A stretch of 24,954 nt of DNA from a virus. Its lineage: Duplodnaviria; Heunggongvirae; Uroviricota; Caudoviricetes. Below the pieces are notes generated by a model. It was not told the DNA's origin, ran no database searches, and saw only the letters and a list, made by a program, of their open reading frames with translations. Below, piece after piece: positions 13,561-16,573 of this stretch. Within the stretch, counting starts at the first letter, position 1; each line of letters begins with the position of its first letter. The stretch is from the IMG/VR virus record IMGVR_UViG_2778261464_000013, one strand, 5' to 3'. Made by a program: the position numbers and the translations under genes.

Positions 13561-14712
13561 TCAGCTTATTTGACCTAATAATTCTTCCGCATATTTTTTA
13601 TCACTATCCATCCGTTGCTGAACAGCATCCCTAAGATGCTCTTTCAACTTATCAGGATAATTTTTACATGCATCAATCAATTTTGTTCGTAAAAGCTTAG
13701 CACCATTTACAATGGTGGCATAAGCTAAAGCATCAGCTAACTCCTTAACTTTCACATCATCAGTAATGATAGAAGGGATTGAAAAAACGTAATATTTCGC
13801 AACATAATTTTGCGTATACCAACTATCATATAACAATCCAATTAAAGCATCACCAAGATCACCTCTTCTTTTAAATTTGCTACCAAATGTATTACCCCAT
13901 GTTCCTATAGCTCCTTTGGTCGCATCAGAATAGAAATCCAAATATCCTTTTTTGCACTCTTCGATGATTATATTTTCCATTCTAATTAAAACATCATCAG
14001 GAAGATTTCTCCATGCGCTCGGCTTAATTATTCTAAATACATTAGCAAACTCAACATTATTGCTAGCCTTGCGTAACTCATCACCTAGCAACCGCATTGC
14101 GGCTTTTTCTTCCTCTCCTGAAAAGCGTTGGTTTATTGCTTTGAATATAGAATCAATTTCCTTGGTTGGCCTTTCATTAAAGCGAGAAATTAAACTTTGG
14201 AAAAAATCTAGTAGTTTTTTTTCTGGAATTTGTGATATTAAAGCTTCTGCATAATCAGAATTATTTACAAAGTGAACCTCATAAATTCTTTCAAGAATTG
14301 CTGTGTAATCGAACTCAGCAACATCTCTTTTTAAATACTTAATAAAAGTATCCAACATGATCAATATTCTCATGCAGGAATCTTCTGTATCAGGGAAATT
14401 GTCATGTGTCCTTGGATTTCTTATACACTGATAGTAGCCTCTTAATAGTGCTTCAAATCCGCGCTGTTCGTCCTGCTCTGATACAGATTGAAGACTATTA
14501 ATTTGGATTCTAGGTGATTGTCCACCCAAAACAGTACCAACAAGCTGAGCCCCATCCCCTTCACATTGCCCTTTTTCACGCAGCAAAGTTGTTAGATATT
14601 TGGTTCCTGCAAGTATTGCATCCGAAAATTGGTTGTTTTCCAGCCTATTACCAATCGCTTCAACTAATTCCGCATCGAAATTATTTGTATTAAAGTTATT
14701 TTTTACAAACAT
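13561..14712 (-). CDS. Hypothetical cargo protein with an N-terminal HEPN-like R-x4-H motif (RNPRTH); candidate abortive-infection/defence protein
   Basis: 383 aa from ATG 14712..14710 (the track starts one codon earlier at a GTG). GGGGAG Shine-Dalgarno upstream. About 35% GC by hand count on the last 60 nt. The RNPRTH codons lie at 14421..14404. Confidence 0.55.
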   Translation of the reverse strand: MFVKNNFNTNNFDAELVEAIGNRLENNQFSDAILAGTKYLTTLLREKGQCEGDGAQLVGTVLGGQSPRIQINSLQSVSEQDEQRGFEALLRGYYQCIRNPRTHDNFPDTEDSCMRILIMLDTFIKYLKRDVAEFDYTAILERIYEVHFVNNSDYAEALISQIPEKKLLDFFQSLISRFNERPTKEIDSIFKAINQRFSGEEEKAAMRLLGDELRKASNNVEFANVFRIIKPSAWRNLPDDVLIRMENIIIEECKKGYLDFYSDATKGAIGTWGNTFGSKFKRRGDLGDALIGLLYDSWYTQNYVAKYYVFSIPSIITDDVKVKELADALAYATIVNGAKLLRTKLIDACKNYPDKLKEHLRDAVQQRMDSDKKYAEELLGQIS

Positions 14713-14794
14713 CACACTCCCCTTTTTTTGAAAGGGTATTGTATTGAACCTTGTTAAGATTTCTCAGATAAGTATCACACTATCTCGAGTTGCG

Positions 14795-14822
14795 CGCGCT
14801 CGTATCCCCGCCACGCCTGCCC
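14795..14822 (-). other. Candidate cos (cohesive end) region
   Basis: The minus strand reads GGCGTGGCGGGGATACGAGCGCGCGC. Its first 13 nt match the GC-rich cohesive-end sequence I recall for 186/P2 (GGCG[T/A]GGCGGGGAAAGCA...). It lies in the expected place, between the replication-side cargo and the portal gene. Recalled from memory and not verified. Confidence 0.3.
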
Positions 14823-14858
14823 GCTTTTTGTAGCGATTTTCATGCAGGTGCATGACAT

Positions 14859-14886
14859 AAGCAAAAGCCCACCAGAACTGGCGGGC
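14859..14886 (-). terminator. Rho-independent terminator downstream of the 260-aa membrane-protein gene
   Basis: On the minus strand: GCCCGCC-agttct-GGTGGGC (7-bp GC-rich stem with one G-U pair) followed by TTTTGCTT. It starts about 50 nt after the stop at 14935. Confidence 0.6.
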
Positions 14887-14934
14887 CTCAGCAAAAACGA
14901 TCCTCAAACGATCATGCATATTCATGCGGCATAG

Positions 14935-15717
14935 TCATGCAGTGACTTTGGTCTGGTCAGGCGTAGAAAAATCTTCGAAAGATTTATAAGTTTCAGTATC
15001 AAATATTGAAATACTCTCAACCTGATCCATTGGGATTACATGCCTAAAATGATTTAAGTTCAGTGGAGTTGAGTCTGCTGTAATATTTTTACTAAGGTAA
15101 AGTTCATAGTAACGATGCTGCTCATGGTATCTGAGCGTATCTTTATCACGATAACCACTGATGTATGGTATGAGAGCCAGATGCTGAGTTTCCTGATGCT
15201 CCATCCGAGGAGCAGCTACGTAACCAATGTAAACTTTTCTGGATTTTAGCGTAACAAAGATGAGCTTACCTTCATCTATAGCCTGAACTAACAGTGACTC
15301 AATTCCATCTTGAGCTGCCATCTCGCGATATGCAGATTGACGAATCTCTTCGTTTTCTATTGCTCTTCGCGCATTGTTACCTTGGTCATAAGCAATAAAC
15401 ACCGCAAGCAGCATAGACAACACAAAGAACAATGGGTAAGACATTATCTTTACGTCTGTGAGCCATGAATAAAAGTCCACATGTAACTTAGGCCAAAAAT
15501 AACCAAAAAAATTGATAACTGAGCTTATAACTAGCAAGGTAACGAATGTAACAGCCATCAGAGTAAACCCCTGAATAGCAAACTTACAACCATGCATAGC
15601 TACATAAAAATAGGAATTCCAACCATTACTTCTTGCTTGCCTGATGCGGGACTGGTAATGATTTTCGGTGTACCAGAACCCGCAAACCAGGACGACCATG
15701 ATAACTAAGGGTCCCAT
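14935..15717 (-). CDS. Hypothetical membrane protein: about 3 N-terminal TM helices and a soluble C-terminal domain of roughly 140 aa; candidate defence effector
   Basis: 260 aa. ATG at 15717..15715 sits 3 nt after the stop of the upstream 66-aa ORF, with AAGGA/GAGGA upstream. The flanking region is AT-rich by eye. Hydrophobic segments at roughly aa 3-15, 50-74 and 92-110. Confidence 0.55.
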   Translation of the reverse strand: MGPLVIMVVLVCGFWYTENHYQSRIRQARSNGWNSYFYVAMHGCKFAIQGFTLMAVTFVTLLVISSVINFFGYFWPKLHVDFYSWLTDVKIMSYPLFFVLSMLLAVFIAYDQGNNARRAIENEEIRQSAYREMAAQDGIESLLVQAIDEGKLIFVTLKSRKVYIGYVAAPRMEHQETQHLALIPYISGYRDKDTLRYHEQHRYYELYLSKNITADSTPLNLNHFRHVIPMDQVESISIFDTETYKSFEDFSTPDQTKVTA

Positions 15718-15720
15718 TCC

Positions 15721-15921
15721 TCATCCTTGTCGTTTTGCAGCCAATTCTTCCATTCTGGCACGCATTGATTCACGTACCTGCTTATTGTTCATGTTTAAGG
15801 TCGCCGCACCATTAGCATCTGTGATAATTTTACTATTATCAGACTGTTGCACATCCTGACGGATGACATCCTGCATAATCTTACCTGGTGCAGAGAGAAC
15901 TTTGCGCAGAAGTTCAGACAT
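15721..15921 (-). CDS. Small hypothetical protein (66 aa), translationally coupled to the downstream membrane-protein gene
   Basis: ATG at 15921..15919 is preceded by GGAGGA (4-nt spacer). The track ORF extends upstream to 15996 but has no Shine-Dalgarno there. Confidence 0.45.
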   Translation of the reverse strand: MSELLRKVLSAPGKIMQDVIRQDVQQSDNSKIITDANGAATLNMNNKQVRESMRARMEELAAKRQG

Positions 15922-15981
15922 ATTTTCCTCCTTATGCCTCAAACGCCACGGATTGTGGTGCATGGAAGCTGTCATCTTATG

Positions 15982-15987
15982 ATTATA
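15982..15987 (-). promoter_or_regulatory. Perfect -10 hexamer TATAAT (minus strand) upstream of the 66-aa/260-aa gene pair; candidate promoter
   Basis: The minus strand reads ...gttgtccTATAATcat..., about 55 nt upstream of the ATG at 15921. No good -35 element. Confidence 0.3.
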
Positions 15988-16099
15988 GGACAACAAAAAT
16001 ACGAAACTATTCGAAGAGTGCTACGTATTAACCTATTTACATATCACCCTGCAACCAATTTATCCATAACTAACGCCTCGCACGGCTCGTTGCTCAACC

Positions 16100-16140: not shown

Positions 16141-16374
16141 CTAATGTAACCAGCTGTCGTCTTCCCACACCTTCTGCATAATTTTCATCACTTGCTTCCT
16201 TTCTTCGTCCAGTTGCAGTCCGGTCAGTTCCACACCGTTAGAGCTACCTTTGCGGATACGAATTACCGTTTTGGGATACAGGGGGCGCAGATTGCGGTAA
16301 AGCTCGGATTCAAGGGCGTCCAGTGTAGACTGGCTAATCTTCTGCTCTTTATCGATCATTATTTCAATGCGCAT
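16141..16374 (-). CDS. DinI-family protein (DinI/Tum C-terminal domain-like)
   Basis: 77 aa from ATG 16374..16372 (MRIEIMIDK...LDALESEL...WEDDSW), which aligns well to E. coli DinI as I recall it. GAGGTGA Shine-Dalgarno. The track ORF extends upstream to 16446. Confidence 0.7.
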   Translation of the reverse strand: MRIEIMIDKEQKISQSTLDALESELYRNLRPLYPKTVIRIRKGSSNGVELTGLQLDEERKQVMKIMQKVWEDDSWLH

Positions 16375-16384
16375 AAAAGTCACC

Positions 16385-16573
16385 TCAGCTGATGACATCC
16401 ATTGAGCGGTTGTATTCGTGGGTTCTGATTTTTGCCATGAGTTCATCTGTTAGTTCAGAAACCCACTGCAAAGCCAGCCCCTTCTCTTCATCACTACACT
16501 CACTAGCCGCTACAAGCTTAAGAAAAAAATCAATGCGCTGGAGCTTCAAAGACTCCAAAAAATAGTCCTGCAT
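16385..16573 (-). CDS. Small hypothetical ORF (62 aa), first gene of the putative LexA-controlled operon; possible N-terminal part of a split Tum-like antirepressor
   Basis: Lies directly downstream of the LexA box. It overlaps the 5' extension of the DinI-like ORF in another reading frame. Confidence 0.35.
   Translation of the reverse strand: MQDYFLESLKLQRIDFFLKLVAASECSDEEKGLALQWVSELTDELMAKIRTHEYNRSMDVIS

What the first reader, a model, noticed from the sequence alone, without database searches (positions are those of the whole stretch)
14859..15996. Self-contained two-gene cargo unit (66-aa protein plus 260-aa membrane protein) in the replication-gene/portal-gene hotspot
Between gene A and the portal gene, where P2 itself carries tin and old, this phage has an AT-rich unit with its own perfect -10 element (TATAAT, 15982..15987), a strong Shine-Dalgarno, two translationally coupled genes (stop and start 3 nt apart) and an intrinsic terminator (14859..14886). 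The products are a 66-aa soluble protein and a 260-aa protein with about three N-terminal TM helices and a C-terminal domain in which I recognise no motif. This is how many abortive-infection systems are built (small partner plus membrane effector), and I cannot assign it to a named family.
Basis: partly seen in the sequence, partly recalled or inferred. Interest (0 to 1): 0.8.

Follow-up and report, generated by a model that had tools for sequence, protein, structure and literature searches.

The report
Uncharacterised two-gene phage membrane cassette
A real, conserved pair of genes (a small soluble protein plus an inner-membrane protein with an Sm-like cytoplasmic domain) rides as add-on cargo in many unrelated phages, including this P2-like prophage; it is a plausible but untested phage-exclusion module of a family nobody has named.

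Summary
The two ORFs, Shine-Dalgarno, 3-nt coupling, TATAAT and hairpin are all at the stated coordinates. The window is about 99.7% identical to the CFT073 P2-like prophage. One correction: the phage cos site lies at ~14799-14817, and the "terminator" sits in the conserved cos flank shared by P2-like prophages in ~1,250 of 5,426 complete E. coli genomes whatever their cargo. True cargo is ~14942-16063.

Neither protein matches PADLOC, Pfam or NCBIfam; neither is Tin or Old. Rousset et al. 2022 catalogued the 260-aa protein alone (system #43, "2 TM", 93 loci) with no recorded test.

New here:
- The 66-aa partner is conserved with the large gene in 75 of 80 loci, down to ~24% identity.
- The family has ~2,650 representative clusters, all unnamed.
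- The pair recurs as a moron: P2-like cos slot, lambdoid tail and nin regions, siphoviral chaperone/tape-measure gap (HK97 gp15's site), next to integrases. Pantoea/Erwinia carry chromosomal copies.

Best reading: a prophage moron acting at the inner membrane in phage exclusion. The function is inferred and has not been shown.

The parts
14942..16063 (-). Variable cargo slot at the right end of the phage genome, between the DinI-side backbone and the cos flank. It holds the whole cassette.
   Evidence: Backbone homology to P2-like prophages with other cargo (EC931, Fels-2, ETEC4091) ends at 14940-14941 and resumes at about 16064-16070, or at 16143 in Fels-2. GC is about 0.40, against 0.53 in the core.
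15982..15992 (-). Promoter-like -10 region, TGTCC-TATAAT. It has a C directly before the hexamer and no recognisable -35.
   Evidence: Sequence. TGTCCTATAAT, TGTTCTACAAT, TGTCCTAAAAT and TGTCCTATAGT are conserved in position in 10 of 12 close-clade loci in P2, plasmid and chromosomal contexts. The consensus scan did not call it, for lack of a -35. It is not conserved in distant clades.
15927..15933 (-). Shine-Dalgarno AAGGAGG, 5 nt upstream of the ATG of the small gene.
   Evidence: AGGAG is invariant in all 12 aligned loci.
15721..15921 (-). Small partner gene, 66 aa, hydrophilic and cytoplasmic (WP_001292590). The conserved core is a beta-hairpin plus a C-terminal helix.
   Evidence: - ORF.
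- PHROG 22451, function unknown.
- No Pfam, PADLOC or NCBIfam match.
- Present directly upstream of the large gene in 75 of 80 loci, and in the Klebsiella, Salmonella and Pseudoalteromonas phages.
- AF2 pLDDT 74.8: hairpin 32-42 and helix 47-65 are confident, the N-terminus is not.
- dN/dS 0.04.
14935..15717 (-). Large gene, 260 aa (WP_000529102). It has three N-terminal TM helices (predicted N-out/C-in), two linker helices and a cytoplasmic Sm-like beta-barrel domain (about 138-240).
   Evidence: - ORF; hydropathy.
- AF2 pLDDT 85.7.
- PHROG 3630, function unknown.
- Family signature: G13, G32-W33, Y36, G43 | K161, Y163, G165, P184, S187-G188-Y189-R190, Y203, Y207, F239.
- Rousset 2022 Table S5B system #43.
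14859..14886 (-). GC-rich hairpin plus U-run. It can terminate transcription of the cassette, but it belongs to the conserved cos-flanking backbone and not to the cargo.
   Evidence: It folds with 11 pairs. It lies inside the 14789-14941 segment conserved in about 1,250 E. coli genomes and in Fels-2, SopEPhi and Klebsiella P2-likes, whatever their cargo. The Klebsiella phi14.1 flank has the same hairpin.
14799..14817 (-). cos cohesive-end sequence (ggcgtggcggggatacgag). It separates the right-end slot (this cassette) from the left-end slot (the 384-aa TIGR02391 gene).
   Evidence: 14 of 19 positions match P2 cos GGCGAGGCGGGGAAAGCAC. The flanks aagcgggc and gcgcgc are shared. A near-identical cos context appears in the P4-like sequences of Rousset Table S2A.

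Best explanation
Shown: this is a two-gene phage 'moron', an add-on cassette that moves among unrelated phages and a few chromosomal or plasmid sites.

Predicted:
- It encodes an inner-membrane protein whose three TM helices tether an Sm-like beta-barrel domain to the cytoplasmic face.
- It also encodes a 66-aa cytoplasmic partner, translated just upstream from the same mRNA.

Inferred:
- In this P2-like prophage it is transcribed from its own weak, -35-less promoter (possibly also by read-through from the A operon). Transcription stops at the hairpin in the cos flank.
- The cassette is expressed from the prophage and acts at the inner membrane against incoming phages.
- The conserved K/R/Y/S pocket of the Sm-like domain, together with the conserved cytoplasmic residues 1-45, binds a phage-derived ligand, most plausibly nucleic acid at or near the entry site.
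- Binding either blocks genome entry (superinfection exclusion) or opens the holin-like three-TM bundle to abort the infection.
- The small partner modulates this as an inhibitor or adaptor. It is not strictly required.
For: Moron behaviour:
- Present or absent among otherwise collinear P2-like prophages, with sharp boundaries.
- Lower GC than the phage core.
- The -10 and SD are conserved with the pair across contexts.
- It has its own strong terminators right after the large gene in lambdoid, siphoviral and SEN5 contexts.

Recurrence of diverged pairs (24-34% identity):
- In the same cos-proximal slot of Klebsiella Gegavirus and Salmonella SEN4/5.
- Near the repressor and integrase regions of Pseudoalteromonas C5a.
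- In a lambdoid tail operon, in siphoviral tail modules between the chaperone and tape-measure genes, next to an Aeromonas prophage integrase, and in lambdoid nin regions.
- The chaperone/tape-measure gap is the site of the HK97 gp15 exclusion moron (PMC3594210).

Other support:
- The slot is the P2 tin/old slot, and many validated defence systems lie in this hotspot (PMC9122126).
- The architecture and Sm-like fold come from a confident model.
- Constraint concentrates on the cytoplasmic parts, while the periplasmic loop and TM2/TM3 vary.
- Purifying selection acts on both genes.
- The partner is conserved in 75 of 80 loci.
Against: - There is no experimental evidence of any phenotype. Rousset et al. 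catalogued the large gene, but it is absent from their tables of cloned systems.
- No similarity to any PADLOC model was found, for the window proteins or for 117 family members.
- Chromosomal copies in Pantoea and Erwinia, and close-clade copies outside phages, sit among housekeeping, transport and metabolic genes with almost no defence neighbours.
- In every phage context the pair is co-directional with the flanking operons. It could therefore be a lytic-cycle gene expressed by read-through.
- The promoter lacks a -35 and was not called by the scan.
- Five species lack the partner.
Confidence: 0.4

Rival explanations
1. Lytic-cycle accessory function for the carrier phage. The pair would be expressed mainly by read-through from early (A/nin) or late (tail) operons. 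It would help the phage itself, for example by remodelling host RNA or membrane physiology, by counter-defence, or by excluding competitors only during lytic growth.
For: - The pair is always co-directional with the surrounding phage operons: downstream of gpA/DinI, in nin regions, and inside tail operons.
- It recurs next to other early accessory genes such as DinI, orphan DNA methylases and RecA/LexA-like genes.
- The promoter is weak and lacks a -35.
- Sm/Hfq-like folds are RNA chaperones, and T4-type phages encode LSm-like proteins (PMC12152347, listed).
Against: - A conserved -10 and 150-350-nt upstream gaps, plus dedicated terminators, mark an independent transcription unit.
- Chromosomal and plasmid copies persist without any phage.
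- The AT-rich, swap-in/swap-out slot is typical of prophage-expressed cargo.
Confidence: 0.2
2. Toxin-antitoxin-like addiction module. The membrane protein would be a toxin that depolarises or permeabilises the membrane, and the small upstream protein its antitoxin. The pair would stabilise the prophage or islet without a dedicated anti-phage role.
For: - The layout is the classic small-upstream-gene arrangement, with abutting or overlapping stop and start codons (gaps of -1 to 9 nt in the 75 loci with a partner).
- The distribution is patchy, as isolated two-gene islets between housekeeping genes and on plasmids.
- The predicted three-TM N-out/C-in topology resembles class I holins (inference).
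Against: - Five Erwinia/Kalamiella species keep an intact large gene with no partner anywhere in the locus. An unguarded toxin should not persist.
- No TA-family HMM matches either protein.
- The small protein has no DNA-binding fold of the kind usual in type II antitoxins.
Confidence: 0.15
3. Host-physiology (lysogenic-conversion) function unrelated to phages, for example an envelope or stress-response role. The phage copies would be recruited from a chromosomal gene pair.
For: - Nearly every Pantoea or Erwinia species sampled carries a 33-39% identical pair in syntenic housekeeping neighbourhoods: uspA-uspB-pitA-yhiN-AKR | pair | LacI-SDR-MFS, or IraP-MFS | pair | CrcB.
- The -10 has the C at -13 that is typical of sigma-S promoters (inference).
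- Morons often derive from bacterial genes (PMC3594210).
Against: - All six abundant distant clusters sampled are in prophages, and four sequenced Peduoviridae genera carry the pair.
- Chromosomal contexts differ between genera, so the pair is inserted and not ancestral.
- No metabolic or regulatory partner gene is consistently linked.
Confidence: 0.15
4. The ORFs are spurious or decaying remnants with no function.
For: There is no functional annotation anywhere. The small ORF is only 66 codons.
Against: - Both ORFs are conserved in length and sequence over about 2,650 representative clusters (large gene) and in 75 of 80 loci (small gene).
- dN is far below dS.
- The structure predictions are confident.
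Confidence: 0.01

Closest known systems
HK97 gp15 moron (superinfection exclusion; Cumby et al. 2012, reviewed in PMC3594210)
   Same: - It is an independent add-on unit in a phage genome that encodes an inner-membrane protein.
- Distant members of this family sit at the same site, between the tail-assembly-chaperone gene and the tape-measure gene.
- Bacterial homologues exist outside prophages.
   Different: gp15 is a single small protein of the YebO family with no Sm-like domain and no partner gene. I did not test sequence relatedness. An exclusion function is shown for gp15 and only inferred here.
P2 old and tin (the canonical cargo of this hotspot)
   Same: The genomic position is the same, between gpA and cos at the phage right end. 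They are AT-rich, non-essential cargo expressed in the lysogen.
   Different: There is no homology: BLASTP E = 7 and hhalign probability 0.1% against Tin, and no ATPase or TOPRIM domain. old-tin are transcribed from near cos towards A, whereas this pair runs in the opposite direction, co-directional with A.
Rousset et al. 2022 P2-hotspot catalogue, system #43 ('2 TM', 93 occurrences)
   Same: It is the same protein (3 substitutions) and the same locus. The CFT073 locus is row 1 of their Table S5A.
   Different: It is listed as a single-gene entry with no Pfam domain. The 66-aa partner, the fold, the wider family and the non-P2 contexts are not described, and it is not among the cloned systems.
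Sm/LSm/Hfq proteins and WYL sensor domains (DriD, BrxR, CapW, PafBC)
   Different: There is no sequence-level match to the LSM, Hfq or WYL Pfam models. The domain is membrane-tethered and carries extra helices after the barrel. Ring assembly and ligand binding are untested.
Two-component membrane abortive-infection systems (lambda RexAB type) and membrane-localised entry defences (SNIPE, PMC13190303)
   Same: They are prophage- or hotspot-encoded, with an inner-membrane component plus a second protein or domain facing the cytoplasm. They act at the membrane where phage DNA enters (RexAB from general knowledge).
   Different: There is no sequence or domain relationship, no nuclease domain and no PADLOC hit. 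The resemblance is in layout only.

Membership tests
Phage moron (independent accessory transcription unit; definition in PMC3594210) | Extra DNA present in some but not other closely related phages, with sharp boundaries | tested here: met
   The slot 14942..~16063 is replaced by other cargo in EC931, Fels-2 and most P2-like prophages. Only 16 of 5,426 E. coli genomes carry this pair at 99% or more.
Phage moron (independent accessory transcription unit; definition in PMC3594210) | Base composition different from the surrounding phage genes | tested here: met
   GC is 0.38-0.45, against 0.50-0.60.
Phage moron (independent accessory transcription unit; definition in PMC3594210) | Own promoter | tested here: inconclusive
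   A perfect -10 is conserved with the pair in P2, plasmid and chromosomal copies of the close clade. There is no -35 and the consensus scan made no call. The -10 is not conserved in distant clades. No transcript data are available.
Phage moron (independent accessory transcription unit; definition in PMC3594210) | Own terminator | tested here: inconclusive
   Strong hairpin plus T-run terminators follow the large gene directly in the lambdoid, siphoviral and SEN5 copies. In this window the only hairpin (14886..14859) belongs to the conserved cos flank.
Phage moron (independent accessory transcription unit; definition in PMC3594210) | Expressed from the repressed prophage | not testable with these tools
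   This needs RNA-seq or 5'-RACE of a CFT073-type lysogen.
Known anti-phage defence systems (PADLOC-DB v2.0.0, which I recall but did not verify includes the Rst_ and PD- systems from P2/P4 hotspots) | HMM match of a component protein | tested here: not met
   There were no families at E <= 1 for either window protein, and no credible match for 117 family members. The peptide strings are absent from Rousset Tables S2A/S2B, which include the AC1 2TM+1TM+TIR system.
P2 Tin / Old | Sequence homology to Tin, or an ABC-ATPase plus TOPRIM architecture (Old) | tested here: not met
   BLASTP E = 7.2 and hhalign probability 0.1% against Tin. No ATPase or TOPRIM Pfam domain was found.
Sm/LSm/Hfq superfamily | Sm fold: an N-terminal helix followed by a strongly bent five-stranded antiparallel sheet | tested here: met
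Sm/LSm/Hfq superfamily | Sm1/Sm2 sequence motifs, or a match to the LSM/Hfq profile | tested here: not met
   There is no Pfam match at E <= 1 and no PDB sequence relative.
Sm/LSm/Hfq superfamily | Hexameric or heptameric ring, and RNA binding | not testable with these tools
   Only monomer prediction was available.
Type II toxin-antitoxin module | Small upstream gene translationally coupled to a larger toxin gene | tested here: met
   The gap is 3 nt here, and from -1 to 9 nt in the other 75 loci with a partner.
Type II toxin-antitoxin module | The toxin never occurs without its antitoxin; membership of a known TA family | tested here: not met
   Five species have the large gene alone. Pfam and NCBIfam give no TA match.
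MscS-type mechanosensitive channel (three TM helices plus an Sm-like beta domain) | MS_channel profile match, or structural match to the MscS TM3-beta domain | tested here: not met
Pfam DUF6338 (PF19865) | Score above the gathering threshold (26.5 bits) | tested here: not met
   The window protein has no hit. Five of 117 distant members hit weakly, with a best E of 1.5e-5. One member shown in detail scored 13.7 bits over residues 4-176. This may be a remote sister family. It has no functional literature.

The most novel reading that the evidence does not exclude
This is the founding, still unnamed member of a large family (about 2,650 clusters at 50% identity) of membrane-anchored Sm-like phage-exclusion proteins. 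The family would be spread as a moron across myoviruses and siphoviruses. A cytoplasmic Sm-like ring would sense incoming phage nucleic acid, or a phage-induced ligand, at the inner membrane. It would then gate a holin-like three-TM bundle, or block the entry channel, under the control of a 60-77-aa partner. That would be a sensor-effector logic not represented among described defence systems.
Probability: 0.25. Interest if true: 0.75.

Novelty: new variant of a known kind. Interest (0 to 1): 0.55.

Why it matters
P2-like prophages are a proven reservoir of anti-phage systems, yet much of their hotspot cargo is still unnamed. This cassette is not a one-off. The same pair has been picked up repeatedly by unrelated temperate phages at the classic moron sites, which suggests it pays its way. 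If it is an exclusion or abortive system, it would add a family built on a membrane-tethered Sm-like domain. That would extend the Sm/Hfq/WYL sensing fold to the membrane. It would also give a simple two-gene model for how prophages police DNA entry. If instead it serves the phage's own lytic cycle or host physiology, its spread across phage types still makes it one of the more common uncharacterised morons of enterobacterial phages. The practical gains from this work are the corrected cloning boundaries, the recognition that the small gene belongs to the unit (the published catalogue lists the large gene alone), and a short list of invariant residues to mutate.

Tried and rejected
1. **Tin/Old orthology:** rejected.
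2. **Membership of any PADLOC, Pfam or NCBIfam family:** none found, for the window proteins or for 117 distant members. Only a sub-threshold DUF6338 similarity appeared in a few distant members.
3. **Identity with the validated AC1 '2TM+1TM+TIR' system or any other cloned Rousset system:** the peptide strings are absent from Table S2.
5. **Conserved 5'-leader hairpin between the -10 and the SD:** the RNAalifold consensus is only -1.4 kcal/mol with little covariation, so I dropped it.
6. **The hairpin as the cassette's own terminator:** rejected for this window, because it lies in the cos flank.
7. **Defence-island association outside phages:** not seen; there are only isolated hits.
8. **Structure and sequence libraries:** The BFVD viral structure search gave only weak, unnamed hits. 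A PDB sequence profile search found no relatives.
9. **Literature searches:** searches for the WP accessions, for DUF6338 and for TM plus Sm-like anti-phage proteins found no description of this family.
10. **The 53-aa ORF 14925..14764:** it spans cos and is not a gene.
11. **Read-through fusion model of the two proteins:** considered but not run. The predicted N-out topology of the large protein makes a head-to-tail fusion uninformative.
Full report
**1. What is in the sequence**

- TATAAT at 15987..15982.
- AAGGAGG at 15933..15927.
- A 66-aa ORF at 15921..15721.
- A 3-nt gap (GGA).
- A 260-aa ORF at 15717..14935.
- A GC-rich hairpin with a U-run at 14886..14859. It folds with 11 pairs.

The unit has about 0.40 GC, against about 0.53 in the phage core. 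The 66-aa product is hydrophilic. The 260-aa product has two strong hydrophobic segments and a short hydrophobic N-terminus. The consensus promoter scan did not call the TATAAT, because no usable -35 exists.

**2. Where the window comes from, and a correction to the anatomy**

The region is 99.7% identical to the P2-like prophage of E. coli CFT073. The gene order there is terminase, portal, TIGR02391 gene, the pair, DinI, a small conserved ORF, gpA.

I compared the window with the ends of phage P2 and with the P4-type cos sequences printed in Rousset et al. Table S2A. The cohesive-end site is at about 14799..14817 (ggcgtggcggggatacgag, 14 of 19 identical to P2 cos, with shared flanks).

The segment 14789..14941 is conserved in about 1,250 of 5,426 complete E. 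coli genomes, and in Fels-2, SopEPhi and Klebsiella P2-like phages, whatever cargo they carry. Pairwise comparison shows backbone homology ending at 14940-14941, just past the stop codon of the large gene. Homology resumes at about 16064-16070.

Three conclusions follow:
- The hairpin belongs to the cos flank and not to the cargo.
- The true cargo is about 14942..16063.
- The gpA-gpQ 'hotspot' is two slots separated by cos.

The two slots assort independently. The same pair is combined with a TIGR02391 gene (CFT073) or with TIR plus a hypothetical gene (13TMH22). Diverged versions are combined with RloB plus an AAA ATPase (ETEC4091) or with a SEFIR protein (Klebsiella phi14.1).

**3. Is it a known family?**

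- Neither protein matches PADLOC, Pfam or NCBIfam, even at E <= 1.
- Both fall in PHROGs of unknown function.
- The large protein is unrelated to P2 Tin and has no Old-type domains.
- Rousset et al. 2022 (PMC9122126) surveyed this hotspot. The CFT073 locus is the first row of their Table S5A, and the 260-aa protein alone is their system #43 ('2 TM', no Pfam, 93 occurrences).
- Its sequence is absent from their tables of validated and of tested-but-inactive systems, and the 66-aa partner is not listed.
- No paper in the library cites the accessions. Searches for related descriptions found nothing.

**4. The pair is a conserved module**

The indexed homologue search found 158 clusters, all about 255-273 aa and all 'hypothetical'. 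A scan of one genome per species returned 201 loci, of which 80 were kept.

- In all close relatives the small gene lies directly upstream with the same spacing.
- A homologous small ORF is also present in the 33-39% clade. In total 75 of 80 loci have it, with stop and start codons abutting or overlapping.
- Five Erwinia/Kalamiella species have the large gene alone, and no partner appears anywhere in the locus.
- Both genes are under strong purifying selection.
- Within the close clade the -10 (TGTCCTATAAT and variants) and the SD keep their positions in P2, plasmid and chromosomal contexts.

**5. Structure**

With a 35-sequence alignment, AlphaFold2 gives a confident model (pLDDT 85.7):
- Helices 2-19, 33-72 and 96-121.
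- Two linker helices.
- A compact domain with helix 138-149 and five strands up to residue 239.

The positive-inside rule places the N-terminus outside and the Sm-like domain in the cytoplasm (inference).

Conservation is concentrated on residues 1-45 and on the Sm-like core. The rest of TM2, the periplasmic loop, TM3 and the linker are highly variable. The family-wide invariant residues form a basic and aromatic set suggestive of a ligand pocket: K161, Y163, G165, P184, S187-G188-Y189-R190, Y203, Y207 and F239.

The partner model is confident only for a beta-hairpin (32-42) and a C-terminal helix (47-65). That is also its conserved core.

**6. Size and ecology of the family**

A profile search of 1.84 billion representatives finds 2,657 proteins at E <= 1e-3 and 1,510 at E <= 1e-10. 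Nearly all are 240-290 aa and align end to end. None has a name or a Pfam domain. A few distant members show sub-threshold similarity to DUF6338.

Phage contexts:

| Context | Position of the pair |
|---|---|
| Klebsiella Gegavirus; Salmonella SEN4/5 | Same cos-proximal slot, pairs 31-34% identical |
| Pseudoalteromonas C5a | Between the repressor and integrase regions |
| Lambdoid tail operon (Enterobacter) | Between the gpK-like gene and gpJ |
| Aeromonas prophage | Next to the integrase |
| Siphoviral tail modules | Between the chaperone and tape-measure genes |
| Lambdoid nin-type regions | Between a DNA methylase and DinI or RecA |

All six abundant distant clusters I sampled were in prophages. 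In these contexts a strong terminator follows the large gene directly.

Non-phage contexts:
- Pantoea and Erwinia species carry a 33-39% identical pair among housekeeping genes such as uspA/uspB/pitA, IraP and CrcB.
- Close-clade copies outside P2 lie among transport and metabolic genes, with only isolated defence-type neighbours.
- A few copies are on large plasmids.

**7. Interpretation**

The cassette meets the descriptive definition of a moron as given in PMC3594210. It is an add-on relative to sibling phages, has a different GC content, carries promoter-like and terminator elements, and has bacterial homologues outside prophages.

Its siphoviral insertion site is the same as that of HK97 gene 15, the founding moron, which encodes an inner-membrane superinfection-exclusion protein. 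Its P2 site is the tin/old slot of a hotspot rich in validated defence systems.

I therefore rank a prophage-expressed, inner-membrane phage-exclusion function first, at about 0.4. In that reading the Sm-like domain senses a ligand and the small protein modulates it. This is inference: nothing here shows a phenotype, ligand binding, oligomerisation or expression.

The rivals are:
- A lytic-cycle accessory role, expressed by read-through. The pair is always co-directional with its host operon.
- A TA-like addiction module. This is weakened by the partner-less clade.
- A host-physiology function. The chromosomal Pantoea/Erwinia copies point this way.

**8. Verdict**

The cassette is unassigned, conserved, mobile cargo that could well be a defence or exclusion module, but that remains untested.

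The locus itself was already catalogued. New here are the obligate-looking partner, the Sm-like fold, the family's size, and its repeated capture by unrelated phages.

Noticed in passing
window 14799..14817 (cos) and 14789..14941 (conserved cos flank): The phage cohesive-end site lies inside the gpA-gpQ hotspot and divides it into two cargo slots that assort independently. The same pair is found with TIGR02391 or TIR+hyp, and diverged versions with RloB+AAA or SEFIR cargo, on the other side of cos.
   Followed up: yes
window 13561..14715 (-): A 384-aa gene in the left-end slot. Its N-terminal Hypoth_Ymh/TIGR02391 domain has an R-x4-H (RNPRTH) HEPN-type motif. It gives partial PADLOC hits to PD-Lambda-3_B (2.4e-14) and Aga_HEPN. 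It is Rousset system #31, 'putative nuclease' (118 occurrences), and is a separate single-gene defence candidate.
   Followed up: partly
window 16141..16446 (-); L089, L103, L106: DinI, orphan DNA methylase and RecA/LexA-like genes recur next to the pair in unrelated phages: P2-like DinI|pair; SEN5 methylase|pair; lambdoid nin region methylase|pair|DinI or RecA. I cannot say whether this is a functional link or just shared accessory-gene sites.
   Followed up: no
L026, L033, L056, L061, L063 (Erwinia/Kalamiella): One subclade keeps an intact large gene about 100 nt downstream of an MFS transporter gene, and the small partner is absent from the whole locus.
   Followed up: partly
window 15982..15992 (-): The conserved -10 has a C immediately upstream (cCTATAAT) and no -35, a pattern reminiscent of sigma-S-dependent promoters. 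Some chromosomal homologues lie near uspA/uspB and iraP. This is speculative.
   Followed up: no
window 14764..14925 (-): A 53-aa ORF spans the cos site and hairpin. Its conservation is explained by cos, so it is not a gene.
   Followed up: yes
L027-L069 (Pantoea), L047-L081 (Erwinia): Nearly every Pantoea or Erwinia species sampled has a 33-39% identical pair in syntenic housekeeping neighbourhoods with no phage genes within 6 kb. This could be a domesticated copy or the ancestral source of the phage moron.
   Followed up: partly
distant family members P0285 and others (A3): A weak, sub-threshold similarity to Pfam DUF6338 covers the TM region and the start of the Sm-like domain. DUF6338 may be a remote sister family. 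It has no functional literature.
   Followed up: partly
H65, NZ_CP066556.1 (Enterobacter hormaechei, 35,441-bp 'plasmid'): A family member lies on a 35-kb non-mobilisable plasmid record whose size matches a P2-like genome. It may be an extrachromosomal P2-like phage-plasmid.
   Followed up: no
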